Assembly (NCBI GenBank): GCA_016748015.1
Contig: JAAOMT010000503.1
Span: 732,305 to 796,304 of the forward strand
Direction of reading: 5' to 3'
DNA: 64,000 nt
Source of the DNA: Geosiphon pyriformis uo1
Lineage: Eukaryota; Fungi; Glomeromycota
In this document: piece by piece, positions 351 through 62,404 of the stretch
Layout: the number at the start of each line of letters is the position of its first letter
Position numbering within the stretch: the stretch's first letter is position 1
The notes under the pieces: model-generated
Told to the model about the DNA's origin: nothing
What the model saw: the letters and a program-made list of their open reading frames with translations, nothing else
Databases searched by the model: none
Program-made: the position numbers and the translations under genes

Positions 351-2239
351 ATGAAAAAGAGCAGCTAATAATATTTAAAAGTCACAAAAGAAACAGAAAG
401 AAAGACATGATAGTCAACTACTAGACAAACCAGTGGAATTCAAGATTGGAGACAAAATACTCTTACATCATACCAAAGCAGAAAAACAATGAAGTGGAAA
501 ATTTGACCCCAAATGGGATGGACTATTTCACATAAAAAAAATTCTAGGAAATAGAGCTTACAAATTAAAACTGAATAACAAAATTTTAACCAAAGCAGCA
601 CATGGAGATTGACTGAAACCATACCACAACATTACACTACCATCTACCAGTAATATTCCACAATTAGGAGTACAGAGAATACTAGTCCAACCAGATAAAA
701 TTCCACGAAATCTGGAACCAATTGTTATTATTAACAACAACATGTTAAATTGATCCATTAAAAGAATATATAAAGACATAGTAGATACAACAGAAAATAT
801 CAGAAAAATGGAAATTACAGACAACATTCACTCACTAGCACAACAACTCTTTCAATTAATCCAACACCAGGAAATGGAGATTACAATCAATCAACAAACC
901 ATTTGATATCAAGATACTAGAAAGACATTTCAACTCAGAACACAGAGGAAAACTGAAAATACTGTGGACAAAATTATGGCAAAAGTAAAATTAGCAATAA
1001 GAGAGTCGACAAAAGAGGCACTATATCAAGAGTTGACTAAAGAAACTTGGAATTGGTGGATACAACAATTTCCAAGAAACTATTGTTATTTTTACTTGGG
1101 ACAACACATAAATATCCAGAATCTATATATGGATAAAACAAAGCAATTATTTGACAAAAGAATACTACAACAATTAGAACATTTTGTGAGAAAGAACAAC
1201 TTATCCACACAGGCCCGAGCCATATACCAAATACACACAGCATTTTAGGATAGATCAGAAATATTACTCAACAAAGCAATGGATATGGTTACCAGTAATC
1301 AATTAGGAAAGATCACCAATACTCAATTTGAAGAATTACAGACCCAAATAACACAAGTAATTCTCAAAAACAAAATCCAGGAAATACTTCAAGAGGGTGA
1401 ATTAAATAAGTTGGATTTTGATGGAGCTCAATATTAAAAGGAGAAAATAATGTTACTCATAGAAATATAGAAAATATATTAGCAGGAGTAGTAACCAATT
1501 AAAAGTAGACATAGTAAATATGGAATTTCAGGATTCCCTGATGAGGAATTGCAGGATTCCAGAATTCCAGGATTCTTCTCAAAGGAATTGCAGGATTCCA
1601 GAAATTTCAGAATTCCTGTCGTGAAGAATCAAGGAATTGAGAAATCTCAATTATGTATATATAGCAGCAGAATTAGAAGCTAAAAAGAGAGACCTCTCAG
1701 TGTAGATTAATCTAAGCAACCTTCCAATTCTCAATTATCAAATAAATAATTATTTTATATCTTAATCCACTCTCAATTATTAACACTTCATGTTGATAGT
1801 AATTGATACTTAACCATACTGGAACAATAGTTTTTGATCATGGCTATTGACGAGATACTAACTTACCAAATTGTCTTGGCTTATCTTTATTATCATTATT
1901 TTCTTTATTTTATTTATTTCTTTCTTTGATTCTGTTGTGTTTACTAATTGATTGGGGATTAAAAGTGCTGAGTTATTGATGTTATGGATAGCTTGGTAAA
2001 AGACCCAGAAATAAGAATAGATTTATATATATTATCAGTTAGCTTACCAAAAGGACACAACTACCAGAATAAATCTGGCCACCAAGCTAAGACTATCAAA
2101 TCTCTGTCTATTATACAAAAGACTCCATCAAAACCTTCAGATACAACACTTTCATAATATCATTGACAGAAATAGCTTTTGAGCACTAAGTTATGGGTTT
2201 GTTATTTGACTTGAGACTCCAAATAATTCAACTATAACA
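351..2239 (+). mobile_element. Gypsy family A copy A1, 3' part: integrase C-terminus, unknown domain (742-1437), PPT, 3' LTR (1451-2239)
   Basis: Closely matches 51310-53239. GPF-type integrase tail, ORF end DGAQY*, purine tract before TGTTACTCATAG, LTR ends ACTATAACA. Confidence 0.9.
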
Positions 2240-4731
2240 ATGCAACAGAAGACTTCAGAAAAATGAAAATTACTGACAACATCCACTCACCGGCACAATA
2301 AATTTTTCAATTGATTCAACAACAGAATATGAAAATTACTATCAATTAACAAATCATTAAATACCAAAATATCAAAAAGATATCCAAATACAAAAGTTAA
2401 AGAAAAACAGAAAACACTATCAACAAAATAATTCTAAAAATAAAATTAGCAATAAAAAAATCAACAATTGTCACCACATATCAAGAGTTAACCAAAGAAA
2501 CTTGGAAATAGTAAATACACAAATTTCCAAGAAACTTTTGTTATTTCCACTTGAAATAACACTTGAATATTCAGAATTTATACATGGATAAAACAAAATG
2601 ATTATTTGACACAATAATATTGCAACAACTAGAACAATTTGTGAGCAAAAACAATCTAACAACACAAGCAAAAGTCATCTATCAATTGCATGCTGGATTC
2701 CAAAACAGATTGGAAATTTTACTCAATCTGAAAATAGATTCCATTACAGTTAACCAAATGGGAAAAATAACCATCACCCAATTTGAAGAATTACAGAACA
2801 AAATAACTCAAGTAATTCTTGAAAAAAAAGTTCAAGAAATACTCAAAAACAGAGAATTAGAGTCAGAAGATTTGGGAAATCTTGATGGAGCTCAATATTA
2901 AAAAAGAGGAAATAATATTACTCATAGAATATAGGAAATATATATTAGCATAAATTAGCCAATCAGAAATAATTATAGTAAATATGGAATTCCAGGATTC
3001 CTCTCAAGAGGAATTGCAAAATTCCAGGAATTTTAGGATTCTCATATAAAGAATTACAGAATTCCAAAATTCCAGAATTTCTCTCAAAAGAAATTGCAGG
3101 ATTCCAAAAATTCCAGGATTCTTGGTGTGAGGAATTGAGGAATCGAAAAATTTCAATTATGTATATATAGCAGTAGTATTAAAAGGAGAAAAAAACAGAA
3201 TCTTTTAATTAGAAATCTCTTAGTTTAGATCTAATCCAAGCAATCTTCTATTCACAATTATTAATAAATAATTATTCATTATTGCAATTCACTTTTCACT
3301 ATTAACACTTTATGTTGATAATAATTGATACTTGACCACATGGAAATAATAGCTCTTGATTATGACTATTGATAGGATACTAACTTGTAATTGCTTTTAC
3401 TCATTTTTTTTTATTCCTTTATTTTTTTTTATTTCTTTTGTTATTTCTTTGGTTTTACTAAATTGATTAAGAATTAAGCACTAAGATACAAATGTTATAG
3501 GAACTGGTAAAAAATCCATGAAACAAGAGTAGAACACTTATAGATTTGAGGATAGTTTACCAGGAGGATTACCAGTCACCATGCTGTTACAGGATGGTTT
3601 TTTTGGTATATTTTAATTGTTGATCTTCCGTTTTAATTGCAATTAGTCTCTCATAAGTTTCTCTATTTTATATGTTGGATATTAATGATAATGTACTGAA
3701 GGTTTTCTCTTGATGTTGTAATATAAGTCTTCTCTTTAATTCTAATTGTCTTTGTATGTTGTGTACTCCTTCCTAAAAGCTAATCTGAAATCTACTTGCT
3801 GTCTGGGGTTTTCTCTGAGGCTATCTTTGCAATTGCCTGATGTGTTTCTCTAATCTAGAAACACAGAATATTAATGGCCTTTTTGCGATTTTTCTAAGTA
3901 TATAATAAAGCTTTTTCAATTTAATTAGTAACCACATAAATAATTTTGATTAAGAATTATTCTTCCAAAGGGTTCAAAGATAGAATGATAGTTTCATTTA
4001 CTAGAGAGTGTATGTGAATTCTATTGTTAATCTCGTAATTGTAATGTTCATTCAATTTATTATTTTTTTTATTAATTCTTTTTGAATAAAATTTTATTTA
4101 GATATTTGTTGCTTTTAGTTGAAGCTTGTTTTATTCTTCATCATTAAAAACTATTGTATATATATATAATTATTGTTTTATAAAATAACATTTTGTAATA
4201 CTCTATTTTTGTTATTTCTAAATAGTGCTTGCTGCTATTATAAAATAGTGCTTGCTGCTTTTGCATAATAGTGCTTGCTGCTATTGCACAATAGTGCTTG
4301 CTGCTATTTGTAAATCATTTCTTTTTTATAATTTGTTGCTGTGCTATTTCATGATTGGCTAATTTATATTATTTATAATTCCTATTAAATTCTTAAACTG
4401 TAATATTATCCCGTCCTTTCAAGATTGAGCTCCATCAAAATTGAAGTTAATTTCTTCATTGAATTCTAAGTTGCTATAGTAGTCCAATACTGTATTATTA
4501 ACTTGTTGTTGTAATTTTTGAAATTTTGAGTTGGTAAGTCGTCCAATACTATTGGTTGTTATTATGTTTATGGTCAAATCCAGTAATACTTTGTGACAAT
4601 TTTCAAATGCTTTGAAAATTCTGTAAACTGCTTTTTAAATTGAATGTACTGTTGGTTTTTTCAATAAAACTTTCTAATTGTTGGATTGTTGCTTTGTCAA
4701 TTACTTTAATTGATGAGTGGATTCATGATTT

Positions 4732-7700: not shown

Positions 7701-10700
7701 CAAACTGAACATTCTAGTTTTGGTCTGCATTGTTGACAGTTTCTTTGTGGACTTGCCTGGTTCTATTTGGATCTTCCTTCACTCCTCCAAGTTGATATGG
7801 CTGGTAGTCCTGTTCTTTGGTCATCAGCCCATGAGAGCTGATAAGTTTTGATGACTGGTAGGATTAGATTTTTTTTAAATTTGAAGGTGGGTCTTTGGTT
7901 GGTGCTGGGTTTTTAGAAGTGGCCACATGTGGCTGGAATTCTGGCATGGTGGCCATTATAGCTGATAAAAAGCTCTTGGATGGTCCAGTCTAATGTGGCA
8001 TTGGCTTTTGTTAGCCAGTCATTTCTTACTAACACTTAATATTATGTAGTATCCATTACTAATACTTTTGTAGGTATTATTATGCCATTAATTTCAAAAG
8101 GAAATGAGTCAATTTTGCCATGAGACAGCTTAGTACTTCCATCAACTGTTATAATTTGGGACATTGTGGCATGATCAACTTTGAAACCCAGTTGGTTTAC
8201 TAGTTGAAGCATCACAATGCTTCTGGTGGATCTACTGTTTAAGATAAGTTTGATTGGCATGTTGTTTACTTTTGCTTCCATGTATATAGCAGTGATTGGG
8301 CATTCTTTGTTCAATGCTGCTCCACTAAACATAGCCTCTTTTTTCTCTAATTCAAAAGGAAAAATAGCTGTGAGGCTGCTATCTTTTGTGACAATGGCTG
8401 GTAGTATTGTTTGGATCAAGTTCTGGTTATTGGTAATATTTTTGGTTCTAGGTATGTTACTATTAATATTTCTGAGATTTAAGTTTTCCGATATATTAAG
8501 GTAAGTTGGCTGAAAATTTGAGTAGTTTGAGTAGTTTGTGTTTGTTTGCTAATTAGGTCCTATACAATTAGGATTTCTAGTAATAATCACATTTTGACTT
8601 AATACTGGCTGGCTTCGAAACTCTGGACACCAGTTTGGATTTGAAATCACTGGTCATTGCTGGTAAGTTCTTTGATTTTGGTATGTAGTGGAGTATTGAT
8701 GTGATATTGGCATGTATTGATTTCTGAGCATTTAGGGTGGCATGTAATAATTATTCTCACATGTTTCATGTATCATTCACATTTGATATTAACTAATTAA
8801 ATGTCCTATGTATTTACAAAAATGACAGGCGCACGTTTCTGTTCTGAAGTCCTGGCATAATAAGTGATTATTTTGGCTGCCGCTGAATTCCTGGTTGTGT
8901 CTTTGTGGTGTTTGATATGTGTTATTTCTTCCTGGGTCTGAGATGAGGTAACTTTTTATTTTCTTAGAGAGTTCCTTCCCTAATTGTGTTACTCTTTTTT
9001 CTAATGTTTCTGTCTTGTTTTTCTCCATTACCATGTTAACCATTTGACTATGATTAGCTTTTTTCTCAGCCGATTCAAGGGCTCTGGCAAGTGTAATGGC
9101 TTCTGGTAATAAATTAGGGTGGGCAGGGCATACTTTTTCTAAAATGCTGCTTTTTAATCCTCTAATAAATTGATTTAAAACCTGAGAATTGGTATAGTAT
9201 CCTTGCTTAATTGCTTCAATTTGACAGCAAATTTAATTGAATCAAGCAAAGTATTGGGTAACAGTTTTACCTGTACTTTGCTTGATAGTATTGAATTCGT
9301 TTAATTGAATTATGGTGTTTGGGTTGCTAAAATACTCCAAGAGTGCATTTTTGAATTTGGCAAAGCTTGTGGGTTTTGTTTTCAAGCTTTGATATCATGA
9401 GTTGGCAGTGCCTTTCAGAAAGAAAAGTAACATTTGGATTACTCTTTGATCATTCCAGTTATTTGCCTGGATGGCTTTTTGTGCTTTTTTGAGCCATGTG
9501 TGCATGTCCATTTCTTCTTTCTCTCTTGAAAAATCTGTTAATTGTGCAATATACAGTGTGGCCATTTCATTGTTGTTTCCTGCTGGTGGGTTTATTGGTC
9601 TAAGAGAAGATGGAATGATATTTTCTTGAGTGTTCCTAAAAGTGGCTTCACTTATATCCAGTTTTTCTTCTTAATCATGAGTTTCTTGGTTTTTGGACTG
9701 GCTGCTTGTTTTTTCACTGGTTTCTTCAGATTCCAATTCAGATTTTTCTTCATGGTTTTCAAACCCACTCCGAATTTTGGTTGAAAAAAAGGTTTTTGGA
9801 ATAGCAATGAATATCTTTTTGTGATTGGTATATTTTCCCAATTGCATTGTTTGAGCTTCTCAGTGTAATTAGAAGTTCTCGGTATTTGTGGGGTTAATGT
9901 GAATGATGATGCAGCTCCTAATGAGAGTTGGATTTTATTATCTGGGAAAAAATGGTAAGATCTTTTTTCTGTCAAATGAAGGCATTGTTTCTTTACTGAT
10001 TGCACAATGTTTTTCTTGGGCATTTGGGCAGTGTTACTCATAGAAATATAGGGAATATATATTAGCATAGTTATTAGCTAATCAGAAATAGATGTAGTAA
10101 AATGTGGAATTCCAGGATTTCTCTCAGGAATTGCAGGATTCCAGGAATTACAGGATTCTCACAAGGAATCGCAGGATTCCAGAATTCCAGGATTCCTCTC
10201 AAAGAAATTGCAGAATTCCAGGAATTCCAGAATTCCTGTTGTGAAAAATTGAGGAATTGAGGAATCTTAATTATGTATATATAGCAGTAGGATTAGAAGC
10301 TGAAAAGACAGACCTCTCAGTTTAGATTTAATCTAAGCAACTCTCCAAATCACAATTATCTAATAAATAACTATTTGTTATCTCAAATCTATTTCCACTA
10401 TCAACACTTTATGTTGATAGTAATTGATACTTAACCATACTGAAACAATAGCTCTTGATCATGGCTATTGACAGAATACTAACTTGCAAATCATCTTGGC
10501 TTATTTCTTTTTTTTCTTTATTTTCTTTTCTTTTCTTTATTTTCTTGCTTTGATTTTATTGTTGTTTACTAATTCTATTGAGGATTAATGCATGGGGCAC
10601 TAACATCAGGATAAACGTGACTGGTAAAAAACCCAGAAATAAGGATAGAACACTCAATTGAGGATAGCTTACCAGAAGGAATACTGGCCATCAAGCTAAG

Positions 10701-11290: not shown

Positions 11291-13048
11291 TTTTGTTTCT
11301 TTTTTTTTAGCAATAAATTATTGCTAATTATTATTTTTTTTTTGATTTTCTTTCTTCATAAGGTTCACCAAATGTTATGGAGGTGTTTTCTTGGTATATT
11401 TTAATTGTTGATTTCTCGTTTTAATTACAATCAGTTTTTCGTGAGTTTTTTTATTTTATGTGTTGAATATTAATGATGATGTACTGAAAATTTTCTCTTG
11501 ATGTTGTGATGTAAATCTTCTCTTTAATTCTAATTGTCTTTGTATATTGTGTATTCTTTCCCAGAGACTAATCTAAAATTTACCTGCTGTCTGGGGTCTT
11601 CTCTGAAGCTATTCTTGCAATTGCCTGATGTGTTTCTCTAATCTAGAAACATGGAATGTTAATAGTCTTTTTGCGATTTCTCTAAGTATATAATAAAGCT
11701 TTTTCAATTTAATTAGTAACCATGTGAATAATTTTGATCAGGAATTATTCTTCCAAAGAGTTCAGAGATGGAATGATAGTTTCATTCACTAGAGAGGGTA
11801 TGTAAATTCTATTATTAATCTTGTAATTATGATATTCATTCAATTTATTATTTTTTTTATTAATTCTTTTTGAATAAAATTTTATTTATATATTTGTTGC
11901 TTTTAGTTGAAGCTTGTTCTATTCTTTATCATTAAAAACTATTGTATATATATATAATTATTTTACAAAATAACATCTTGTAATACTCTATTTTTATTAT
12001 TTCTAAATAGTGTTTGCTGCTATTGTGAAATAGTGCTTGCTGCTTTTGCATAATAGTGCTTGCTATTATTGTAAAATAGTGCTTGCTGCTATTGTAAAAT
12101 AGTGCTTGCTGTTATTTGTAAATTATTTTTTTTTTATAACTTGTTGCTGTGCTATTTTATAATTAGCTAATTTATATTATTTATAATTCCTATTAAATTC
12201 TTGAACTGTAACAATGCTGAGAAAGAAATTTGATGAAACTGCAGTTTCAGAAAGCTATGGATAAAACCATCAATTAAATCTCTGTCCATTATACAAAGGA
12301 CTCAACCAAAACCTTTAAATAAAAACAAAGTACCAATATTACTAACATCATCCACCAGATTAATTATTGAGCACCAAGTTACGAATTTGTTATTTGATTT
12401 GAAACCCCAAATAATTACTTGTAACAATGTCAACAAGAGAATCACAAATTTTCTAGAAAGACCAATTGACATTGAATTAGCAAGAGAAAATTTTTATACA
12501 AAGTTAATCTAACATACCAGCTTATCATAGAATTACAGTTTTGCACCAATTATTAAAGAAATTAATTAAAAAATTGAAAAATACACTCAACAACAATTTC
12601 TTATTACCTATGCAAATAAGGATAAAAAAAAATTACAAACACCAGCAGTAATACCAAGAAAAATACAATTACCAACATAGAAGAAACAAAAAATTGAATT
12701 CCCACTATATCCATCATATCATCACACATCCAGTAGTATTATTAACATCTCAACAGATGCATCCACATCAAACACAACATCAACATTTGGACAACTTCCA
12801 TTTCAAAGTAAACAAAAGAAAGTAGAATTATTAGGAATTTATAGCAATTACTTTGAAGGATTTAAATTGTGATCCCCAATGCTATCAGAATTCCAATCAC
12901 TACCACCTCAACCAGATTTTAGAACTGCAAGTTCCTGAGAGATAACAGTGTTACCTGAGTAGAAAAACCAAAAAGCTATGAAAAAACGTGACTAAGAAAT
13001 GTAACAAAAAAAACGTGGTACAACTCGAGGTAACACAGAACAAATATG

Positions 13049-13170: not shown

Positions 13171-14049
13171 ACAATTAAAAGCAATCCTGTAAAACCAAAA
13201 TAATGTATAAAAGCAAATAGCTGTAGAAGTTAAAATGACATCCAGAGAGAAAATTAGACTTTTAGGAGTCAATTAGACTCTCAGAGTTAATTAGACTCAT
13301 AGGTCATAATTATTAAATACTTCTTTTTTCAAGGATAGTTGCTATCAACCAAAATAAAATTATATTAATAAAATATCTCTTCAATTCTTCAAATCCATGT
13401 TATTATCTATTACTTAACCTGCTGGCACAATAGCTCTTGATCATGACTATTGACAGAACACTTATTTCTTATTTTATTTTTTTTATTTTTTTATTTTTTT
13501 TTTATTTTTTTTTATTTTTTTTATTTTTTTCTTGTGGAGCAGCAACATAAGAAAATCAATTATCTGAAAATAGACTTCATAATAGCCTGGTAAAAAAAGG
13601 AAGCTCTCCTTAGGTTTTTAAATATTAACATTATCTTGATAGCTTACCAGAAGAGCAAAAAGACAATGCTGGATCCTAATGACTGCACTTGTTAATTCAG
13701 AAAAGAAAGCTTACCATTATAAGAAGTTGCAATCAGCAAAAACCAAAACTCTGTGCCTTATAACCAAAGAACTCAATGAGTAAATTCACAACCAGTAATT
13801 AAGACTTTCAGAGACTGATAATCAAGACTAAGCCAACAAAATTATGCAAAAGATATATTATCAATCATTGAAAGCACCAAACATTACCATTTTCATCTCC
13901 CACCAAGTTTATCTATAACATTTGGTGCTCCCTGTGAGGTTATAAATCCATAGAGACCGAGCCTCTCAGAAATTCACAAAAGTGAAAAACCAAGAAAAAA
14001 CAAAGGAAAAATTACTTAGGATTCACAAAATCTTTATTTTAGCATTTTC

Positions 14050-14710: not shown

Positions 14711-17700
14711 CCATTGGAAGAATTCCAGAAAAAAACTACCCAGATTTATACTTACTTATACAAAGACTGCCTTCTTCCATGCCAAAAGTCAGCATTGAGA
14801 AAGTGTTAATATAAAAAAGACTTAGAGAAGAAAAAGAGATTTGAGAATCAGTAGTACTAAAATCAATTAACAAATCATCAAAACTCATCTGATGGCCCCA
14901 AGTCACAATCCACTTTCATGTGTCATATATTCAAACTCCAAGAAAAACAAGCCAATTAGTGAGAATTAGAATCAGAACTTAATTCCAATTCAAACTTTAC
15001 TGATAATGATAATGACAATTCAAACTTTGCCGACAATGACAACAACAATTCAAACTCTGTTTCAAATACCGAACAATATATCACACTTCTAAATCTTACA
15101 ATGAAGCAGGAATTAACTCAATTCAGTAATCATAATGAGGACATTATGGCTGAACATGCACATAATATGAATGTAGGATTTGAAATTAGATATCTTGGAC
15201 AGACCCTTATAGTTTAAAAACACCATTCACATATTAAAATAGATTTAAAAATAGCAATAGAAATTATGGCAACAACATAGAGACAAGAGAGAAATTTAGA
15301 AGATTTTGCAAAAGCTCAATTCTAAAAGAGAGAAATAATATTACCCAAGTAGAAAAACCAAAAAGCTATGGAAAAACATGACAAAAAAACATGACAAGAA
15401 AAACACAGTACAATTCAAGATAACACAAGACAAACACAAGCAATAGCTAGTAATAATAAGCAATAGCTAACAATAATGAGCAATAGCTAGCAATAACAAG
15501 CAATAACTAGCAATAACAAGTAATAGCTAGCAATAATAAGCAATAGTTAGCAATAACAAACAATAGCTAGCAATAGTGAAGCAATTGAAAGCAATTCTGT
15601 AAAACCAAAAGAATGTATAAAAACAAATAGCTGTAGAAGTTAAAATGACATCCAGAGAAAAAATTAGACTTTCAAAAGTCAATTAGACTTTCAAAAGTCA
15701 ATTAGACTTTCAGAGTTAATTAGATTCACAGGCTATTATTATTAAATACTTCTCCTTTCAAAGATAGTTGCTATCAACCAAAATAAAATTATATTAATAA
15801 AATATCTCTTTAATTCTTTAAATCCATGTTATTATCCACTACTTAATCTGCTGGCACAATAGTTCTTGATCATGGCTATTAATAGGACACTTATTTCTTA
15901 TTTTATTTTCTTTATTTCTTTATTTTTTTTTTATTTTTTTTATTTTTTTTTATTTTTTTTATTTTTCTTTTGTGGAGCAGCAACATAGGAAAATTAACTG
16001 TCTGGAAATAGACTTCGTAATAGTCTGGTAAAAGAAGGAAGCTCCCCTTAGGTTTTTAAATATTAATGTTATCTTGATAGCTTACCAGAAGAGCAAAAAG
16101 ACAATGCTGGACCCTAATGACTGCACTTGTTAATTCAGAAAAGAAAGCTTACTATTATAAGAAGTTGCAATCAGCGAAAACCAAAACTCTGTGCCTTATA
16201 ACCAAAGAACTCAATGAGTAAATTTACAACCAATAGTTAAGATCTTCAAAGACTAATAATCAAAACTAAGCCAACAGAATTACACAAAAAATGCATTACC
16301 AATTATTGAAAGCACCAAATATTATCATTTCCATCCCCCACCAAGTTTACCCATAACAATGACATCAAAGGAAGAGAAAAAAGAGAATCAAGAATTTAAT
16401 TATCAAAATCCGATCACAGAAAATCCAGAAGTTGAAATCCCAAACATTCAGATCCAGCAAACTCAAAATAATCCAAATCCTGAAGCAATTAATCAGCAAA
16501 ACTTATCTCCAGTAATTATCATCAATCAGCCACCAATTGAACTGATTTAATAGCAGCCACTTTAGCAACCTATTTAACAACCACTTCAACTACCTCCACA
16601 ACCACAGTAGTCTCTTTAACAGCCACAACAACAACTTTAACCAATATACCAACAACTGATCAGACCAATGGCTTACACTTCAATTGCAAAACTTGAAAAA
16701 TTCACTGGCAAAGAGGACGATACCCAAGTGTTGTTAAATAATGTGGAAAAAGCCATCATAGCCAATAGATAAGATGACACCAGAGCCATGCAAGCCATTT
16801 TTTATTTCCTTTAGAATACTGCCAATTTATGGTATCAAAGCTTAGCAAACAAATCTCAAGATTTTAATACATTTAAGCTTGCATTCCTATAATACTTCAG
16901 CAATAATAATAGTATTAATTGTCTAGCAAATACCTTCACCACTATCAAACAGGGAGATACTAAAGCAGTCACCACTTACTTGGGACGTTTCCATCAAAAT
17001 CTGTGCCAAATACAAGTCATCAACACCAATTATTTTACTGTAGTCCAGATCCTGAATCAGTTTATTTGTGGATTACATAGTAGCATCTTGCAATGCGTAT
17101 GACCACTACATCTAGCCAACTTACAAGACACAGTTATACACACCAGAAATTTTGAATCAGCTGAATTAGAAACTAATCATGCCCAAGCTGTAAATCTAAT
17201 AATAAATGAATCATCTAACTTGGATTCCAAACTAAAGCAATTCAATAATTCGATCAATCAGAAAATCAAAAGATACTTAGCTGACAATCATGCAATTTAT
17301 TAACTACCACAATGACACAATAATTCAGGAAACATGAATTGTTTTCACAATCAGTCGCATCCATTATTATTATTCAATCAGCCATGACAACCAAAAACAC
17401 ATGTCTGTCACCACTATAATAAACAAAACTATATTCGAGCCAACTGCCATTTTTATAATAACACATGATTGGGAAATCAATACTGAAACTCCAATTGCAG
17501 CATTTAAACTCCATATTATTATACAAATCAAAACCAATATTAACCTACTTACTTGCCAATGACACAGCAGTCAATATATTAATTACTCATATATCAACTT
17601 CCTGTTTATCAACTGCAGCCACCAGTGATATATTAACTATTACAGCCACAGATAATTTATCAAACACCCACAGTTCAAACACCACCATCAAACTCAGCTC

Positions 17701-21888: not shown

Positions 21889-21921
21889 AAAAACATTTCA
21901 ACCAAAAAATATAATAAAAAG

Positions 21922-23987: not shown

Positions 23988-24829
23988 AAAAAAGGAATAA
24001 TATTACTCATCAAATATAAGAAGTATATATTAGCATAAATTAGCCAATCAGAAGTAACTGTAGTAAAATGTGAAATTTCAGGATTCTTTTCAGAGAAATT
24101 GCAAGATTCCAGAAATTTCAGAATTCTTGTACAAGAAATCACAGGATTCCAGAATTTCAGAATTCTTTTCAAAAAAATTACAGGATTCCAAGAATTCAGA
24201 ATTCCTGGTGTAAAGAATTGAAGAATTGAGGAATCTTAATTATGTATATATAACAGTAGTATTAAAAACAGAAAAGGCAGAATTCTATAGTTAAAGACCT
24301 TATAGTTTAGATTTAATCTAAACAACCTTCCATATTATAAATATCAATAAATAATTATTCAAATATCTCCAATTTACTCTCCACTATTAACACTTGATGT
24401 TGATAACAATTGATACTTAACCACACTAGAACAATAGCTCTTGATCACAGCTATTGATGGGATACTAACATTTATTGCCTTGGCTTATTTTTATTTTATT
24501 TTCTTTATTTTCTTTTATTTTGTTATTTTTTTTGTTTTATTAAATTAATTAAGGATTAAGTGCTAAATTATTGTGGGTAGAACACGTAAAGAATACAGAT
24601 TACTTACCAAAAAAGTGCCAGCCATCAAGCTAAAGAAAAAAATTGACAGAATTGCAATTCTGGGAAGCTATGGATAAAACAACTATTGAATTTTTGTCTA
24701 TTATACAAAAAATTCAACCAAAACCTTTAGATAACAATATTTTCAGATTACCATTACTGCAAATAGCTTCTGAGCACCAAGTTATGGGTTTGTTATTTGA
24801 TTTGAGACCCCAAATAATTACTTATAACA

Positions 24830-39477: not shown

Positions 39478-39519
<42 letters not shown>

Positions 39520-40776: not shown

Positions 40777-43224
40777 AGCCAATCCTCTGTAAGATCGATC
40801 CAAATTCTAGGCTCCTCCTTTCTCTATGTCTATAATGTTTGGCGATTAGTTGACGTAGCTCTTCTTTTGAATTACTTGCCAGCTCAAAATTACTTTGATA
40901 AATGATAAATCCTAACCTATTCAGGATAGGTCTTTGTGCAGTGCGTTGATCACACTGTAATAAAAAATTTTTTTTATTTTCGTCAAAGTATTACGTAATA
41001 GAAGCTTTTACAAGAATTTCTTTATAAAAAAGATTATTGGTACAATTGATCTTTAATATAGCTTTTTAACAATTTTTTTGGTATAATTCTTTTATAATCT
41101 ATACAAGTTGTTATGCTTAATTAATTATAAACATGAATTATGCAGTTTTAACACATAATCAATTATTTAGATTTTTGTTTAAATTAAATTATGTTAATTA
41201 AAAAACAGAATTATTTTTAAAGCATTTATTTTAAATATAAAGTAATTTAAATTTAATAATAAAATTTATAATTTAAAAACACTATTTTGTTTAAAAAAAA
41301 TTTTAACTTTTTTTTATTTTATTATTATTAAAGTTTTTTGTAATAAATTTTTTTTTGAACTTAATAAAATTTTTAAATAATTTGCTTAATACTTTATAAA
41401 AATTTTTAATTTAAGTTTTTACAAAAAAAAATTTTTTGTTTTTATTTAAAACTAAACAGTTTTATTAAACAAAAAAATAATCAAAGTTATTAAAAACCGA
41501 TAAGCTTAATTATAAATTTTATTAATTAAAACAGATTTATAATTAAGTTTTAAAAAAACCAATTTAAAATTTAATAAATAAAAAACAGTTTTAAAATAAA
41601 ATATTAAATCAATATATTAATTTATAAAAATCTTAAAAACTTAAAAACAAATTTTAATAAACAATTTTATACTTAAAACTTTATTTATTTATTAAGTAAA
41701 GTCCAACTGCTATCTAATACATAGAGTCAAACTAAGTGACCCAAACTAAACACAATTTATGCACTTACTACATATGGCTAGCCACTCAGGCCAGTCAAGG
41801 CAACACTACACACCTATATTAACATTAACGACACCACCTAGACCAGAAAAAAAACAGCACGGCAAATAATAACCAAAGCTAACAGTAAATAATTCAACCA
41901 CACCAAGCATTCTAATCACTCCACCCGACAATATAGAAGAAATATCACGAGACAGACCAGAAACAACCCCACCATCAGCAACCAAACCAGCCCTCTTCAT
42001 TTGTACTCTGTGCTTAGATCTCATCAACTATGCCTTCACATGATGTAAATCAGCTACAAACCTAACAAAACCGACAACCTCACCAGTGGCCTGCTTCTTA
42101 TCTTCAAACACACCTCGAGCTTCTTCACACCATTCATCCAGCATGAAGCTCTTATACACAATAGAATACAAACCAACATCTAAAGAACAGGCAGACAATG
42201 TCTGCAAAACAGCTAAAGACGACGAGTTACAAAGACCTGCCACCAAAATCCAATAAGCAAAAGCCTTAACCAGAACCTCATCACAAATAACAACATTCCT
42301 AAAGCACATGAAAGCATGGTCAGAAAATTCCACTCTACCACACAGCAAGCACAATACACCAAGATAATTTCTATCATACAGTTTTTTTTGAACAGCTACT
42401 GAAAAGCACCTGTTGTTACCAGACAAAATTAAAGATATTGTTTAGCATAAAAATACTCTTATAAATCTTATTATTAATTAGCATATATTATTGTTTCAAA
42501 TTATCACTTATTACACTAGCAAAATGTCCGAAATTATCATTTAACTAATAACCCAATTTGTACATAACACAAATATAACCTAAGTACAATGATCAATCAT
42601 GCAATATCCTGAAATATGTAACATTCAAAAGTTCGCCGAAATTTGTAGAAATTTGCCGAAATAATTGATAGTTTACCAAAATATCTAATAGTTCGCAGAA
42701 ATAACTTGTAGTTTGCTGAAATGTATCTTTAGTTTAGCAAAATTGTAGAAAAAAGCAAAGTTCAAGTTTATAGAATAGTGTTATGACAAGTTGTATAAAA
42801 GAAGAGCTTTTCTCTTCAAAAAAATGTATCTTATTTTAGATTTATTACTTAGAACCATTTCTATACACACAAAAAGAAATAAATATCAAATAAATTCAAA
42901 AAACAAAATTCTTTAATTATTGTACTTGGAAAATCCCCAAAATCCAACTAACATTTTGAAATTAATTAGCTACCAATTTCAGTAAACTGTTAGTGACTCC
43001 AGGCCTGAATAGAAAAACGTTTCCCTTGATAAAATTCTATTTCTTTTATTTTTCTTTTTTTTTCTTATTACAATCATTAGGGTAGCCTACAGACAAGATT
43101 CCTGTAGAAGAGTTGACTTTCACAGCAAAGTAACTACACATTTTTAGTGAGCTTTCAGATGATGTTACTCATAGAAATATAAGAAATATATTAACATAAT
43201 TATTAGTCAATCAGAAGTAAGCAT

Positions 43225-43385
43225 AGTAAATGTGGAATTCCAGAATTCCTCTCAGAAATTGCAGGATTCCAGGAATTTCAGGATTCCCAACAAAGAATTG
43301 CAGGATTCCAGAATTCCAGGATTTCTTTCAAAGGAATCGCAGGATTCCAGGAATTCCAGGATTCCTGTCATAAAGAATTGAGGAA
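43225..43385 (+). repeat. GGAATTGCAGGATTCCAGGAATTCC-type short repeats in U3 of LTR-A (present in all A LTRs)
   Basis: Visible upstream of the TATA-like TATATATAG; copy number varies between LTRs. Confidence 0.8.
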
Positions 43386-44019
43386 TTTTAATTATGTATA
43401 TATAGCAATAGTGTTAGAAACAGAAAAGACAGAATTGATACCACAGAATCCTTAACCTAGAAACACAATTATCAAATAAATAATTATTTCATATCTCAAA
43501 TCCATTCCCCACTATCAACCCTTCATGTTGATAGAAATTGATACTTAACCATGCTGGAACAATAGCTCTTGATCACAGCTATTGACGGAATGCTAATCTG
43601 CAAATTGCCTTGGCTTATTTCTTTGCTTTTTTTATTTTTTTTTATTTTTTTTTTCTTATTTTATTTTTGATTTGTTGTTATATACTAATTGATAAAAGAT
43701 TAAGCGCTGAGTTATTGATGTTAAGGATAGCCTGATAAAAGATCCAGAAATACAGGTAGGATTTTATATATTATCGGATAGCTTACCAGAAGGGCATGAC
43801 TGCCAGACTAAATCCGGCCACCACGCTGAGAAAGAAATTGGGAAAACTCTTGGAAAATATATCTACTATCGACATTATTGAATCTCTGTCCATTATACAA
43901 AAGACTCAACCAAAACCTTCAGATACAGCATCTTCAGAACAGTCTCAATGAAAGTAGCTTTTGAGCACCAAGTTATGAGTTTGTTATTTAATTCAAAGCA
44001 GAAATAATTACCTGTAACA

Positions 44020-44037
44020 TTTGGTGCTCTCTGTGAG
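44020..44037 (+). promoter_or_regulatory. Primer-binding site of family A, shared with family D (13921-13939)
   Basis: TGG start 2 nt after the LTR, complementary to a tRNA 3' end ...CUCACAGRGAGCACCA. The tRNA is not established; elongator Met or Ile are candidates. Confidence 0.8.
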
Positions 44038-44081
44038 ATATAATCTTACAGAGAACCAGCACCAACAACACCAAACCAAAA

Positions 44082-50000: not shown

Positions 50001-50268
50001 AACACCAGCTGAAAAGAACTATGAAACACCGGAACAAGAACACTTAGCAATATACTGGGCTGTCATGAAATGGAAAGAATACTTGAGCCAGAAGTTTGAA
50101 GTATACACAGATCACAAGGAATTAACATCACTCCAAAAACAAGAATTTGGAGATGGAAGACAGTCAAGATAGAAAATGGCACTCGCACCATACAAGTATA
50201 CTATACATTACAAAAAAGGAAAAGACAACAGAAATGCTAATGGTTTATCGCAAATAAGACAAATTTAA
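44082..50268 (+). pseudogene. A4 polyprotein: N-terminal extension, capsid, CCHC knuckle, aspartic protease, Cys-rich domain, dUTPase, dUTPase-like relic, RT, RNase H
   Basis: FTGEEDDAQVWL; CHYCGNQGHIQIDC; LILDSRSAGS; DAGFNL/ASRSS/GGIIDMGY/KIAQAIF/RGIQGFGSTG; VMPFGLTNAPATFQ, YLDNT; RNase H ending NANGLSQIRQI*. Two small frameshifts at ~46870 and ~47325. Confidence 0.93.
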
Positions 50269-50331
50269 GAACATTTCAACCCAAAAATATAATAAAACCA
50301 GAACAATACCAATAGAAAAATACAACAAAAG

Positions 50332-52396
50332 ATGAACATACAAAAATATCAACAATTACAACATTATTTAAACACTCAACAATTCAAGGAGAATTTATCT
50401 CATACGGAACAAAGGAGTATCAAATACCAATTAAAATATTTCATCACTCACCAAAATATATTTTATCAGAAAAATAGAAGGGATCTAGATCAACCAATCA
50501 AAGTAATTATGGAGCCAGAAAAAGAGACAATATTATTCAATATGCACTCAAATCCAACAGCAGGACATTTTCACAAAGAAGCAACCATAGAAAGAACTAG
50601 AAAAAGATACTATTGGTCATTAATGTACCCAGACATCATTCAATATGTTCAAAATTGTGACGCTTGTCAGCAAAGAGGAGGAACAAGACCCAGTAAACCA
50701 TTAAGACCAATCAAAGTGGAACAACCATTTGATCATATGGGAATTGATTTAGTAGGACCATTAACAATCACCAGCAGAGAAAACAGATACATAACAGTAG
50801 CTATGGATTATCTTACTAAATGGCAGAGACAAAAGCAATTCAAAGAGCGGATGCAGAATCCATTGCCAAATTCATTTATCAGGATTTAATTTGTCGACAT
50901 GGATGTTCAAAAGAATTATTATCAGACCAAGGAACTCATTTTGTGAACAGAACATTAACAGAATTGAGCCAAAAATTCGGAATCAAGAGACCATTATTAT
51001 CATTATACCATCCACAAACCAACGGATTAGTAGAAAGATTTAATAGAACATTGTGTGAAGCAATAGCCAAGCTCAGCCAAAAAAACCAGAACGATTGGGA
51101 TTTGTTCATACCATCAGTACTATTTGCTTATTGGACAACGAAACAAGATACTATACAAGCAATACCATTTAAATTAGTATATGGGAGAATAGCAACATTA
51201 CCAGTAGAGAGAAAAATTAATACATATCCAGCTGAACCAATAACAGAGAAAAATTTTTAAGAAACATTGCTGAGAAAAACATATGACTTAATGAAAACAT
51301 TGGAAAACAAACAAAGAAGAGCAGCTAATAATATCCAAAAATCACAAAAAACACAGAAAGAAAGACACGATAGTCAACTACCAGACAAACCAGTTAAATT
51401 CAAAATCAGAGACAAAGTATTACTACATATACCAAAGCAGAAAAACAATGGAGTGGAAAATTTGACCCCAAATAGGACGAACCATTTCACATAGAAGAAA
51501 TTCTAGGAAATGGAGCTTACAAATTAAGATTGGATAACAAAATTTTAACCAAAGCAGCATATGGAGATCAACTAAAACCATATCACAACATCACACTACC
51601 ATCTACCAGTAATATTCCACAATTAGGAGTACAGAGAATACTAGTCCAACCAAATAAAATTTCATAAGATTGGGAACCAATCATTATTATCAACAACAAC
51701 ATGTTAAATTGATCCATCAAAAGAATATATAAAGACATAGTAGATGCAACAGAAAATATCAGAAAAATGGAAATTACAGACAACATTCACTCACTAGCAC
51801 AACAACTCTTTCAATTAATCCAACACCAGGAAATGAAGATTACAATCAATCAACAAACCATTCGATATCAAGATACTAGAAAGACATTTCAACTCAGAAC
51901 ACAGAGGAAAACTGAAAATACTGTGAACAAAATCATGGCAAAAGTAAAATTAGCAATAAAAAAATTGACAAAAGAGTCACTATATCAAGAGTTGACTAAA
52001 GAAACTTGGAATTGGTAGATACAACAATTTCCACAAAACTATTGTTATTTTTACTTAGGACAACACGTAAATATCCAGAATCTATATACAGATAAAACAA
52101 AGCAATTATTTGACCAAGGAGTACTACAACAATTAAAATATTTTGTGGAAAAGAACAACTTATTTACACAAGCCCAAGCCATATACTGAATACACACAGC
52201 ATTTCAAGATAAACCAGAAATACTGCTTAACAGAGCAATGGATCTGGTTACCAGTAATCAATTGGGAAAAATCACCAATGCTCAATTTAAAGAATTACAG
52301 ACCCAAATAACACAAGTAATTCTCAAAAACAAAATCCAGAAAATACTTTAAAAGGAAGAATTACATGAGTTAGATTTCGACGGAGCTCAATATTAA
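50332..52396 (+). pseudogene. A4 integrase (HHCC, DDE, GPF) plus in-frame ~230-aa unknown domain (51701-52396)
   Basis: Own ATG after the RNase H stop. HSNPTAGHF...CDACQ, GIDLVGP, LSDQGTHF, NGLVERFNRTL. Ends DFDGAQY* next to the PPT. Confidence 0.9.
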
Positions 52397-55300
52397 AAGG
52401 AGAGAATAATGTTACTTATAGAAATATAAGAAATATATTAGCATAATTATTAGCATAATTATTAGCCAATTAAAAGTAAGCATAGTAAATATAGAATTCC
52501 AGGATTCCTCTTAGGAATTGCAGGATTCCGATTTCTCTTAAAGGAATTGCAGAATTCCAGGAATTCCAGGATTCCTGTCATGAAGAATTGAGGAATTGAG
52601 GAATCTCAATTATGTATATATAGCAGTAGTGTTAGAAACAGAAAAGACAGAATCGATACCACAGAATCCTTAACCTAGAAACACAATCATCAAATAAATA
52701 ATTATTTCATATCTCAAATCCACTCCTCACTATCAATCCTTCATGTTGATAGAAATTAATACTTAACCACGCTGAAACAATAGCTCTTGATCACAGCTAT
52801 TGATGGAATACTAATCTGCAAATTGCCTTGGCTTATTTCTTTGCTTTCTTTATTTTTCTTTTATTTCTTTTTTTCTTATTTTATTTTTGATTTGTTGTTA
52901 TATACTAATTGATAAAAGATTAAGCACTGAGTTATTGATGTCAAGGATAGCCTGGTAAAAGACCCAGAAATATGGGTAGGATTTTATATATTATCGGATA
53001 GCTTACCAGAAGGGCACGACTGCCAGACTAAATCCGGCCACCATGCTGAGAAAGAAATTGGGAAAACTCTTGGAAAATATATCTACTATTGACACTATTG
53101 AATCTCTGTCCATTATACAAAGGACTCAACCAAAACCTTCAGATACAGCACCTTCAGAACAGCCTCAATGGAAGTAGCTTTTGAGCACCAAGTTACGGGT
53201 TTGTTATTTAATTTAAAGCAGAAATAATCACCTGTAACAACAAGCAATTCTTGGGAAAGAGTTGACATTTACTACAATGTAACTATACAAAGTAACTGGC
53301 ATGGAATTGGTCATTTCACTTATAAGCCCAGCAGTTCAAATTATAAGAGATAATTTGAAGATAAATTCAGTTACTGAAGGTTCAACCACATCCAAAAAAC
53401 GTGAATTCACAGCAAACAAGCATCGACAACATTTAAGAAAAGAGACCAAAAACCTTCGGTAACACTGTACACAGCTTTTATCAAATATGAGCACAAATTC
53501 GAAGTTTTCTGACCAGTAAACTCAGTAAGCATATGAGAGTCTGGATGCCAAATTTTTGTGGTAGAAATCCAGTCTATACACCCAACAAGATCAACAGGTA
53601 TCATACTCACACCAGGCCCAGCCTCTCAGTCAGCATGATTAATAGATCAAAAAATGTCCCTTACAAAGTGGCAGGCATTATCAGGGATTGCCATGTTTTC
53701 AGCCATCAAATAACACTCATAAACTCCAACCAACAAAGAGAAGGAAGATCAAGCAGCTTCCTCAGCTGCCAAATTAGCCTTGACATACCCAAAATGCCAG
53801 AATGGCCTTTAACTTTAACCCAGACCATCTTGAGATCTTTTTCCCTAATCAGATTGAAAATATGGTGTCTTTCCAACCAGCACCAATTATGAATCAGGCA
53901 TGGCACAAGACAACTTTGACAAGCAGACATCAATAGCAGCTTGGCTATTAGTATGCAAAATCACTTGACAAGAGGAAGGTACACACTCAAGAGCCAACAC
54001 AACAGCCTACAACTCAGCTAGAGTAGAGAATAATAGACCACCAACCACAACACCAACACTTCTATCTAAAACCAGAAAATACACAGCAGCACCACAAGCA
54101 GCATCAACCAAGCCAGCATTTCTCAAAGATCCATCAGTATACACCTCAAAGCAACTAGACCAGATATCATGCAACCCATCTTTTACCAGAGAAAACACCT
54201 CAGAATCTAAAATGTTTGTATCAACAGACTGAGCAAAACCAGCAGAACTGGAAGCAGAAAAGCCTTAAACCAACATAAACTCAGATGCGACTGAGAACCA
54301 ATAAGGCACAGGGCCCCATGGGTCCAACTTTTTCCAACAACAAAAGATTTTCCAATCTAGCACATGGTCTCTCTTATCCAAAATCCGATCACCAAAAGCA
54401 ACCCCAAAACACTTCAGAAAGCAAACAGAATTAAAATACTCAGAACTACCTAGAATTGACAAAAGTGGAAAACAACCTGGACTGTGAAAGGCATTGGGAA
54501 GGTTGTTAGCCAAAGAAAGCTTATTACTCAAAAAAATTTTTGCAATCCCAGCCAAAAAGTTGTTGACTGGACTAACACACAACTTGACAGGAAACTGCAA
54601 AGAATCCAGAGAAGCCCAGCCAAGAATCTGCAAGTCCAAAAACCTATAATTGAACAAACGCCCAAGGATCCCAGAGGCATTAGAAAAAGACACCAAAGCA
54701 GCAATTTTCCCTTCAGATTGCACTTGTTCAAAAGTTTTCAAGCCATACAAAGAAGAGTGATGTAAGGCAGCATCCAGAAAATTACAAGGCAAACCAGCTT
54801 TGAACTTAAGACCCTTTTTAACCATAACATCCTATTTGCAATAAACACCAGATAAAACAAAACTAAATTGAGTCTAGTAACTAACTATAGGCTGCAAGAC
54901 AGCTGAGACCAAATACGAGAACTGTTTATCTGTAATAGCCTTCCTGAGCATGATGTTGACAAAAAAACGAACATCAGAATAAGCTTTAAACACACTAGGT
55001 TTAGAAAAACCCTCCGTAGACAAGAAGATATCCAGATAATAATGAGCTTTGCCCTTTTTAGCAATCAAGATTGGCTGACCACAAATACTCAGAGAGACAA
55101 TCCTAACACCCTGGTTAATGGGAATAGTTACCGTCTTATCATTATTAATAGAAATATCATTGATTTTGAAGAATTTACTGGCAATGTTCAGAGCATACTG
55201 AGTGAAGGCCTGACAATTTCCAATCCAAATTGTATCATCGACGAATGCACCAGCCGCCAAGTAAAACATCATCCCACCCACACCCTCAACTCTGCCCATC

Positions 55301-59599: not shown

Positions 59600-61380
59600 T
59601 ACAAAATTATAATTTTTTTATTATGTTTTTATAAAATGTAATTTAATTATTATTTTAAATTATATAATAAATAATTATTATACAAAAAATATAATTTATG
59701 TTCTTATTATATATAATTAATTACTTAAATCAATATTATTAATAAAGAAAAACAAAAATTATAATAAATAAAAAATAACCAATAGCAAAATAAAAAATTA
59801 TTAAAAGCATATAATATCAAAAATTTTAAGAATCTTAAGAATTTTAGAAATATTAACAAAAATATTAGAAATTTTAAAAATGTTAAGAATTTTAACAATA
59901 ACTTAAAATTTTTTTAGAAATTTCATATAATGAAGATTTATATATATAATAAAAGTATTAAAAGTTAAAAAATATTATCAAAAAACAAATAAGCTTATTT
60001 TAAGATCAATCTAGTTATTTTTATTTTAATATTACTTATTAATTAATAAATTTAAAATTATCTTATTAAAATTCATATTATAGTTATATTAATACTATTA
60101 GTATTTATCATAATTATTTAAAAACATTAAAACAATAGTTTTTGATTATGATTATTAATAAGATATTAATTATTACTTTATTATTTTATTATTATTGTTT
60201 TAATTAAGTTTACTAATTAATTATAGAAAAAATATTAAGATTATAATATTAAAAATTGCTTAGTAAAAAATATTAAAAAAAGTATAAATATAGTCAAAAA
60301 ACTAAGATTGCTTACTAAAAAGATGTAAATACCAGAATAAATTAGTTATTATATTAAGAAAACTTCGAATTAATTATTAATTATTATTCATTAAATTTTT
60401 GTTTATTATACAAAAAACTTTAACTTAAAACCTTTAGAAAATTCTTTAGAGTAGAATACTACTAACCAGAATACCAAGTTACAGAATTATTACATTAGCC
60501 AAAAATTTATCCATAATACTAATTAAAATTATATTATATACTTATGTTTTTATTTAATATTAAAAGTTTTAATAATTTTAATAAAACCAAACTGTAATTT
60601 AAAACTAAACTAAAATAATTTTTGTAATTAAAAGCCAATAAAAAATTAAAAACAAAACCAAATAAACAAATATTATTTATATTTATAAATATTAAATAAT
60701 CAATTATATTAAAAATTATAAAATACTTAATAATTATTATATATATAATAATATTTTTTTTAGCCAATAACAAATAATATAGAGTTAAATAATTAACAAT
60801 TAAAGTTTTAAAATATAACTTTTTAATAAATTTATTAATTATAAAACTTTTTTTAACTATATTTAATTTATAGACCAAAAAAATTCAATTTTTTTTTTAT
60901 ATTAAATACAAAGTTTATTATTATTAACAATTTTTATAAAGTTTTAATAAAATATATATACAAGCCAATAAACTTAATATTAATTAAGTTAAATATAATA
61001 TTTTTATAAAATATTATATTTATATTATTAATATTAATATGTTTTTTTTTAATTTTAAAAATTTAGAATATTTAAAAACAATTCTAATTAACAAACATTT
61101 AAAATAACTTGATTATTTAAAAAAAAATTCTATTTTATTGTTAATTAAAACAGTATTTAAATCTAAAACAATTACATAAAGCTTTATTATTATGAAAGTC
61201 AACAAATTTGTAATTTTAATACTTAAATTTACATTTAAGTTAAAGAAATAACCAGACAGTATTATTTTTTAAAAGTTGTTTTATCTATTTATTTACAAAA
61301 CTTTATTTTTTTTATTTTTTGTATAATTCGAAAAAAAAATTACAGTTTTATTTTTTGAAAATTTTGTTTTTTAATAAATG
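59600..61380. other. Extremely AT-rich tract, probably a terminally eroded TE relic
   Basis: Almost no G/C. Residual C sits mostly in ACCA/GCCA words, as in the eroded LINE at 24830-30270. No domain recognisable. Confidence 0.4.
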
Positions 61381-61950: not shown

Positions 61951-62404
61951 CGTCATCTTAACTTTTCTCAAGTTGAAAACCTTTTCACTAAGCTCTTTTT
62001 AAATTTTTGAACTCACTTGGAATCCTTTCACTGCAACGTAATGATGGTCCATATGATTTAGATTCCTGGAAAACTGGTAAACGGATTGGGCCGGCCGAAT
62101 TTGTAAAAAACTAAATGGGGAGTTTTTTTTGTTTTTTTTTAAACAAATCGGGTTTATTAAATGATTACTTTGCATACGTCAAGAGCTTGCGTCAGATATT
62201 ACGCCATTTCAGGACGTGTATATCGTGTGAAACAATCAAAAATTTGAAAAGCTATAAATTATCTCGGGGGTTTAATAAAAGTTTTGAAAATTATCATTAT
62301 TATCATTATTATTATTATTAAATCCAATTTGACTTCCGTCTAAAACGAAAACGAAAACGAAAACGAAAACTCTTTACTCTCCTATTTAATAAAATAAAAA
62401 CTTC

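What the first reader, a model, noticed from the sequence alone, without database searches (positions are those of the whole stretch)
52946..53015. Co-varying, two-fold symmetric RNA element (UAGC-stem-AAG) in all four LTR families
Seen at the same relative position, downstream of the TATA-like site and AATAAA, in otherwise dissimilar LTRs. A: GATAGC-CTGGTAA-AAG[ACCCA gaaata TGGGT]...GATAGC-TTACCAG-AAGGGC. D (13581-13656): same stem with a different inner hairpin. C (minus strand, 11556-11613 and ~3770-3825): ATAGC-(C/T)TCAGAG-AAGACC...TAG(C/T)-CTCTGGG-AA(A)G. B (43081-43113): GTAGC-CTACAG...CTGTAG-AAGAG. Stem sequences change while pairing is kept, and the UAGC and AAG flanks persist. In A, C and D the UAGC/AAG pair occurs at both ends of the stem, rotated 180 degrees. 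Inference: a protein-binding cis-element for export, packaging or translation. The symmetric twin-loop design recalls the retroviral constitutive transport element (analogy only).
Basis: partly seen in the sequence, partly recalled or inferred. Interest (0 to 1): 0.8.

Follow-up and report, generated by a model that had tools for sequence, protein, structure and literature searches.

The report
Paired RNA signal in fungal retrotransposons
The terminal repeats of four families of jumping genes in a soil fungus keep a small folded-RNA motif, usually in two copies, next to a self-pairing hairpin; it is likely the tag by which the element's own protein picks its RNA for packaging, though no binding has been tested.

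Summary
The window is a nest of decayed dUTPase-bearing Ty3/Gypsy elements, very likely from the fungus Geosiphon pyriformis. A 7-bp stem with UAGC before and AAG after each strand sits about 330-400 nt after the TATA box, before the primer-binding site. Double transversions keep the pairing between families (stem: A/D versus C; next hairpin: A versus D). The unit is larger than reported: NNGC-helix...helix-AAG-second hairpin. Family B carries two single units in tandem (the second is split by a later insertion). Symmetry is not universal: two of seven A copies have only the inner unit; one subfamily has UUGC at both ends. Upstream lies an unreported hairpin with a covarying stem and a UGAUCA palindrome in a 9-nt loop (A, C, D), like a retroviral dimerisation site. 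Gag-less family D keeps both. Best reading (0.45): a Gag-bound packaging signal working with that kissing hairpin. It is not a CTE (no AAGACA in the loops), and no Rfam family matches. Only about three lineages are independent; no RNA data or relatives' U5 were available.

The parts
52410..53239 (+). LTR A6 (3' LTR of the Ty3/Gypsy element 43163-53239), TGTTAC...GTAACA
52615..52620 (+). TATA-like box (function inferred)
52693..52698 (+). AATAAA, the only one in this LTR
52778..52802 (+). 8-bp hairpin with a 9-nt loop holding the palindrome TGATCA (52788-93); predicted kissing-loop dimerisation site
52830..52900 (+). U-rich tract (present in A, B, D; absent in C)
52946..52961 (+). 5' half: GATAGC, stem strand CTGGTAA, AAG
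52962..52977 (+). inner hairpin P2 (ACCC/GGGT; AAGG/CCTT in D), followed by AG
52997..53012 (+). 3' half: GATAGC, stem strand TTACCAG, AAG
53013..53024 (+). outer hairpin right after AAG (GGCA/TGCC; AGCA/TGCT in D)
53037..53174 (+). GCCACCATG and a short U5 ORF; unverified gene models of sister copies join it to Gag
53183..53239 (+). anti-PBS strand and U5-end hairpin (pairs with the PBS when in a 5' LTR)
   Evidence: folded for A5 43955-44060, z -4.6
43726..43804 (+). twin element, copy A5
44020..44052 (+). primer-binding site and the hairpin after it (tRNA-Met elongator type, recalled, not tested)
1987..2065 (+). twin element, copy A1
10621..10681 (+). copy A3: inner unit only, no outer TAGC
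3504..3569 (+). copy A2: inner unit only, outer 3' flank GAG
60256..60321 (+). copy A7, heavily decayed: TTGC instead of TAGC at both ends
   Evidence: (E 4e-4, not in the model's training set)
24570..24613 (+). copy A4: 5' stem deleted, ATTG and GATTAC flanks left
13581..13670 (+). twin element in D1 (internal region without gag, RT or integrase)
16019..16108 (+). twin element in D2
11557..11613 (-). twin element in C1
3769..3825 (-). twin element in C2
11726..11750 (-). palindrome hairpin of C1 (different stem, same TGATCA loop)
43083..43135 (+). B unit 1: TAGC, 6-bp stem-loop, AAG, bulged hairpin
43149..43162 (+). B unit 2, 5' part (GAGC, TTTCAG), cut by the A insertion
53240..53284 (+). 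B unit 2, 3' part (TTGGGA, AAG, bulged hairpin with ACATT/AATGT in place of ACTTT/AAAGT)
51701..52396 (+). ORF3, about 230 codons between integrase and the polypurine tract; candidate partner, untested

Best explanation
The UAGC/AAG unit is a covarying helix junction in the LTR, between the TATA box and the primer-binding site, of a Geosiphon Ty3/Gypsy clade, and it is likely a Gag-binding packaging signal that would work with the predicted UGAUCA kissing hairpin about 140 nt upstream. Shown: position, pairing, covariation, two units per LTR in most copies, and retention in a gag-less element. Inferred: the region is U5 and so lies only in the 5' leader; two genomes would dimerise through the palindrome loop; Gag would bind the purine-rich junction strands, two sites giving cooperative binding and a nucleus for capsid assembly; binding 30 nt before the U5 AUG would also take the RNA away from ribosomes.
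For: Pairing: 89.9% of 99 cells paired, 8 of 11 pairs changed on both sides, 0 of 500 shuffles as high; slid controls 25-48% paired. Copy decay is 146 of 151, 100 of 102 and 46 of 46 style transitions (C 74 of 79, D 99 of 102, A 46 of 46), so only transversions count; five double transversions remain (two in the stem, three in P2). A 4-bp hairpin starts right after AAG in 7 of 18 slots tested (four different stems), against 31 of 2546 AAGs in the window. Palindrome hairpin: 95.5% of 88 cells paired, 3 of 8 pairs changed on both sides, loop letters T-AT-A invariant in 11 of 11; predicted self-duplex -16 to -28 kcal/mol. D keeps the hairpin and the element, while its 1.4-kb interior hits only the protease/dUTPase-side region. 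Gag has a CCHC knuckle. Retroviral precedent: palindromic loop plus nearby purine internal loop as the Gag site (PMC13736810, passages); Ty1 dimerises through 5' UTR palindromes (PMC6844567, passages). In run X1 none of the 29 places that vary at 5% or more falls in 52947-52972 or 52997-53011.
Against: No binding, dimerisation or RNA data. Only about three lineages are independent (A/D, C, B), each family pair being the two LTRs of one insertion; the shuffle control ignores relatedness. Folding z-scores are not significant, and C1's minimum-energy fold prefers a rival pairing. A2 and A3 have one unit only. C shows no outer second hairpin. B lacks the TGATCA loop; it has a similar stem base with a longer loop. 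The low variant rate is confounded by seeding and mutation context, and the palindrome's C itself varies at 16%. D's retention fits export equally well. The R/U5 boundary is not mapped. Retroviral packaging cores mostly lie downstream of the PBS (recalled).
Confidence: 0.45

Rival explanations
1. A CTE-like export element that recruits host Mex67-Mtr2 to unspliced genomic RNA.
For: Two-fold symmetry in A, C and D, as in the CTE and the two-fold Tap-p15 platform (PMC4330393, passages). The inner strand reads AAGAC in A6, A1 and C1. D keeps it. Gene models join a U5 ORF to Gag across the PBS, so an intron may be retained in genomic RNA.
Against: AAGACA is in neither junction of any copy tested; it occurs only downstream in C and D. 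B's units are tandem. A2 and A3 have one unit. Both flanks switch to UUGC in one subfamily of the same genome. The gene models are unverified predictions on decayed DNA.
Confidence: 0.15
2. A translation-control element for the AUG just downstream (internal initiation, shunting or repression).
For: GCCACCATG lies 30 nt after the element in A6, with four AUGs upstream in the 400-nt leader. In B an AUG 16 nt after unit 2 opens 53 codons. U5-ORF variants differ by 15-nt repeats that keep frame. The clade splits RT-RNase H, integrase and ORF3 into separate frames.
Against: Gag-less D keeps the element intact in both LTRs. The ATG is AAG or ACG in A1, A3, A4 and A5. Subfamilies differ in frame upstream of the conserved codons.
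Confidence: 0.15
3. A response element for the element's own ORF3 protein, in the manner of Rev/RRE or Rex/RxRE.
For: ORF3 is kept across the Geosiphon families and in metagenome relatives (92 profile hits; loci L001 and L002). It folds with a confident helical core (pLDDT 77). The concerted UAGC to UUGC change suits a partner encoded by the element.
Against: No family or fold match. The best weak rows (Z 4.5 or less) include ParB/KorB and Orc6 DNA-binding domains, so a U3 transactivator is as plausible. Nothing links ORF3 to RNA.
Confidence: 0.12
4. A splice-acceptor or 3'-end processing signal (U-rich tract, TACTAAT, UAG), or a structure of single-stranded cDNA.
For: The U-rich tract and TACTAAT precede it in A. 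Gene models appear to enter the LTR at or near these TAGs.
Against: C has no U-rich tract. UUGC flanks have no AG. Splicing does not explain the second UAGC or the stem covariation.
Confidence: 0.07
5. A self-cleaving ribozyme of a new class.
For: Ribozymes occur in other retroelements (search listings). Invariant GC and AAG strands sit at a three-way junction.
Against: No Rfam match and no hammerhead core in nine regions tested. Cleavage in U5 would cut the leader from the PBS. Two equivalent units and a tandem form suit a binding site better.
Confidence: 0.04
6. Chance, or a neutral duplication relic.
For: Few independent lineages; weak folding energies; C's two stem strands are near-palindromic, so a duplication could have seeded the symmetry.
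Against: Twin pattern 9 against 0.17; double transversions in three helices; the concerted flank change in A7.
Confidence: 0.02

Closest known systems
Retroviral dimerisation initiation site and packaging signal (HIV-1 SL1 with its G//AGG loop; BLV and HTLV-1 sites in U5/PBS)
   Same: A hairpin with a 6-nt palindrome at its tip in the 5' leader, with purine-rich unpaired strands nearby (PMC13736810, passages). The 2+6+1 loop matches HIV-1 SL1 (loop geometry recalled).
   Different: The flanking loop bases are mostly pyrimidines, not conserved purines. The candidate protein site is a separate two-unit junction 140 nt away, and all of it lies upstream of the PBS. No sequence match to any Rfam model.
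Constitutive transport element of MPMV/SRV-1
   Same: Two equivalent unpaired motifs related by two-fold symmetry on one helix; AAG-rich strands.
   Different: No AAGACA in the junctions; about 70 nt instead of 150-175; junctions with side hairpins rather than internal loops on a rod; tandem form in B and single form in A2/A3.
Ty1 5' UTR palindromes PAL1/PAL2 and Ty3 cis signals
   Same: Structured leader signals for dimerisation and packaging in a fungal LTR retrotransposon (PMC6844567 and PMC4974528, passages).
   Different: Ty1's palindromes form the stem of SL1; here the palindrome is in the loop. Ty packaging sequences 'have not been precisely defined', whereas this is a compact motif.

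Membership tests
Constitutive transport element (CTE) | Two-fold symmetric pair of loops | tested here: met
   Met in A1, A5, A6, C1, C2, D1, D2 and, as UUGC, in A7; not in A2, A3, A4 or B
Constitutive transport element (CTE) | AAGACA in each symmetric loop | tested here: not met
   definition from PMC4330393
Constitutive transport element (CTE) | 150-175 nt rod with two internal loops | tested here: not met
   about 70 nt, branched; definition from PMC7551171
Constitutive transport element (CTE) | Direct NXF1/Mex67 binding and export of unspliced RNA | not testable with these tools
   needs binding and export assays
Retroviral-type DIS / packaging signal | Hairpin with a 6-nt palindromic loop in the 5' leader | tested here: met
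   A, C, D; not in this form in B
Retroviral-type DIS / packaging signal | Conserved purines flanking the palindrome | tested here: not met
   flanks are C-U...C in A/D and C-C...A in C1
Retroviral-type DIS / packaging signal | Kept by non-autonomous elements | tested here: inconclusive
   D lacks gag, RT and integrase hits and keeps both motifs; one insertion only, and deletion after insertion is not excluded
Retroviral-type DIS / packaging signal | RNA dimerisation and specific Gag binding | not testable with these tools
   only computed duplex energies
Known small self-cleaving ribozymes and other Rfam families | Match to a family covariance model | tested here: not met
   0 at gathering score; none on the element at E up to 10 in 52400-53500 or at E up to 0.5 window-wide
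Kink-turn / k-junction | Tandem 5'-GA-3' on both strands next to the helix (recalled definition) | tested here: not met
   the strands read GC before the stem and AAG/AG after it
Ty3/Gypsy LTR retrotransposon (host element) | gag, protease, RT, RNase H, integrase order; LTRs, PBS, polypurine tract, target-site duplication | tested here: met

The most novel reading that the evidence does not exclude
This fungal Ty3/Gypsy clade is a 'complex' retroelement: its extra ORF3 protein, with no known family or fold match, binds the paired UAGC/AAG junctions in the LTR RNA as a Rev/Rex-like regulator of export and packaging, co-evolving with the motif by subfamily, beside an HIV-like kissing-loop dimerisation site.
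Probability: 0.12. Interest if true: 0.85.

Novelty: new variant of a known kind. Interest (0 to 1): 0.5.

Why it matters
Packaging signals of LTR retrotransposons are poorly defined even in Ty1 and Ty3 (PMC4974528, passage). Here a compact 70-nt motif with natural covariation, one-unit, twin and tandem forms and a flank variant gives ready-made mutants for asking what Gag, ORF3 or Mex67 recognises. A loop-palindrome hairpin of the HIV-1 type in a fungal Ty3/Gypsy leader would show the kissing-loop design outside retroviruses. LTR elements cover 41% of this genome (PMC11952901, passage). The limits: the copies seen are decayed, and the motif is shown in one species only.

Tried and rejected
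No whole genome is held. No RNA holder was listed; this is no evidence either way. The one metagenome scan gave L001 and L002: L001's LTR starts at about 3115 but the contig ends just after the TATA box, and L002 ends inside ORF3, so the motif could not be tested outside Geosiphon (model R1 best E 2.8 on L001). Three protein scans of viral contigs found no relative. One pattern scan gave L003, a chance match inside a phage coding frame. Model R1 does not find B's units, and its hit at 55489 (E 0.02) lies in a LINE-like coding region and is taken as chance. The first ORF3 fold failed (pLDDT 40); the second gave no fold match, which shows no novelty. The protein atlas gave no result, and no complex prediction was obtained. 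Pairing of the GAUAGC flank with the 3' arm of the palindrome hairpin was considered and set aside: A7 changes both flanks without changing that arm. A likeness of the A/D stem to a hairpin-ribozyme helix (recalled) was dropped because the loops do not match and Rfam is blank. MAFFT could not align B's split unit, so it was paired by eye. Some offsets were off by one (B unit 1; the A2, A3 and A7 table rows); those rows were read instead. Earlier findings: nothing returned. Ten literature searches listed no paper on this motif; the library lacks most subscription journals, and no Geosiphon genome paper or supplement was seen.

Full report
Setting. The window is mostly nested retroelements. Pfam finds Gag, dUTPase, RT, RNase H and integrase pieces in Ty3/Gypsy order. 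All 120 listed best hits of the dUTPase-bearing frame are Geosiphon pyriformis proteins, up to 84-85% identical, and one G. pyriformis gene model matches this LTR's U5 frame exactly, so the host is very likely that fungus. Self-comparison and junctions give seven A LTRs, two C, two D and a B solo LTR plus a U3-only B end. B spans 42414-43162 and 53240-53464 with target duplication CTGT, and is interrupted by the full A element 43163-53239. Copies decay almost only by C-to-T and G-to-A changes (46 of 46, 99 of 102 and 74 of 79 differences between paired LTRs), so only transversions count as real covariation.

The observation. The quoted strings are present. The twin pattern occurs 9 times against 0.17 expected; seven are the element. 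On nine copies the main stem and inner hairpin are 89.9% paired, with 8 of 11 pairs changed on both sides and no shuffle of 500 as high. RNAalifold finds the same stem unaided. Five of these changes are double transversions: G-C to C-G and U-A to G-C in the stem between A/D and C, and three in the inner hairpin between A and D. The nine rows are not independent; they represent about three lineages, and B was left out of this alignment because its topology differs. Folding z-scores are not significant. In genomic run X1, 4418 contigs were laid and none of the 29 variable places falls in the two core blocks, but seeding and mutation context may contribute, and X1 may be the assembly's own sample.

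The unit is larger than reported. After AAG a second hairpin starts at once: 7 of 18 slots pass a strict 4-bp test against 1.2% background. C's outer slot shows none, and B's hairpins are bulged and were read by eye. B has two single units in tandem; the second is split by the A insertion, and its stem (TTTCAG/TTGGGA) and hairpin (ACATT/AATGT against ACTTT/AAAGT) differ from unit 1 while still pairing. A2 and A3 have only the inner unit, and A3 has its own target duplication, so symmetry is not required for mobility. A7 has TTGC at both ends, which decay cannot produce; A4 keeps ATTG and GATTAC, and gene model P0309 fits the same flank. Back-translation of other gene models suggests a C-like subfamily with a perfectly paired stem and an inner CAGC flank (P0269, P0289) and an A subfamily with an 8-bp stem (P0251-P0253). 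These are inferences from predicted proteins, not DNA. What stays constant is GC before the stem and a purine triplet after it.

Surroundings. About 140 nt upstream is an 8-bp hairpin with a 9-nt loop holding TGATCA. The stem differs between A/D and C while pairing is kept (95.5% of 88 cells, 3 of 8 pairs changed on both sides). It is also one of the highest peaks of laid depth, with B unit 1 (depth is not a copy number). B has a similar stem base but another loop. Downstream come GCCACCATG and a short frame that several gene models join to Gag across the PBS, then a strong U5-end hairpin that covers the PBS (z -4.6). D's interior has no gag, RT or integrase hit, yet both D LTRs keep the palindrome hairpin and the twin element nearly as in A. 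The clade also has a separate integrase frame and a 230-codon ORF3, seen again in metagenome locus L001. ORF3 has 92 profile hits (of ten looked up, eight are Geosiphon and two unnamed) and a confident helical model without a fold match.

Mechanism. I commit to a packaging signal (0.45). Two genomes would pair through the palindrome loop, and Gag would bind the purine-rich junctions, two sites giving avidity. Position, pairing and retention in D are shown; U5 assignment, dimerisation and binding are inferred from retroviral and Ty1 precedent (PMC13736810, PMC6844567 and PMC4974528, passages only). Export by Mex67 (0.15), translation control (0.15) and an ORF3 response element (0.12) remain open. 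Splicing or 3'-end roles, a ribozyme and chance are unlikely.

Comparison and novelty. It is not a CTE: the loop hexamer and size are not met, though it may still work like one. No Rfam family matches. Ten searches listed no paper on it; PMC8579622 and PMC11952901 were read in passages, the others only as listings, and no Geosiphon genome paper or supplement was seen. It could not be tested outside this genome. Verdict: a real, undescribed structured RNA motif, a new variant of a known kind (retroelement leader signals), interest 0.5.

Noticed in passing
window 50251-50345 and 21871-21935; L001 774-795: RT-RNase H ends at a stop shared by two window copies and L001, and integrase starts at its own ATG after an A/C-rich spacer; with ORF3 the clade has at least three separate frames. 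How the downstream ones are translated is unexplained.
   Followed up: partly
window 51701-52396, 742-1437; L001 2456-3148; L002 865-1275: ORF3 before the polypurine tract: no Pfam family, helical model, no fold match. It resembles a small helical domain common in Glomeromycota repeats (recalled, not tested).
   Followed up: partly
window 43955-44060: Long U5-end hairpin that covers the PBS, plus a second hairpin on the PBS 3' half (z -4.6); 67% of laid depth reads G at 44038.
   Followed up: partly
window 53301-53462: B's U5 holds an open 53-codon frame from a good-context ATG to the LTR's terminal TAA.
   Followed up: no
window 52490-52600, 13046-13170, 11995-12130 (-), 42620-42760: Each family has its own U3 tandem repeats; candidate transcription-factor or ORF3 DNA sites.
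   Followed up: no
window 43159-43162 / 53240-53243, 10028-10031 / 10911-10914, 12945-12948 / 16359-16362: Three 4-bp target duplications differ between sides in a way that fits a decayed CpG. C inserted exactly at the ATG of an A U5 frame (3581-84 / 12214-17).
   Followed up: partly
window 25693-36600 and 54265-59294 (-): Decayed LINE-like elements with weak RT and RRM hits.
   Followed up: no
window 38600-40800 and 62380-63110: Two host genes with introns between the repeats; by eye cyclin-like and PPPDE-peptidase-like (recalled, no search run).
   Followed up: no
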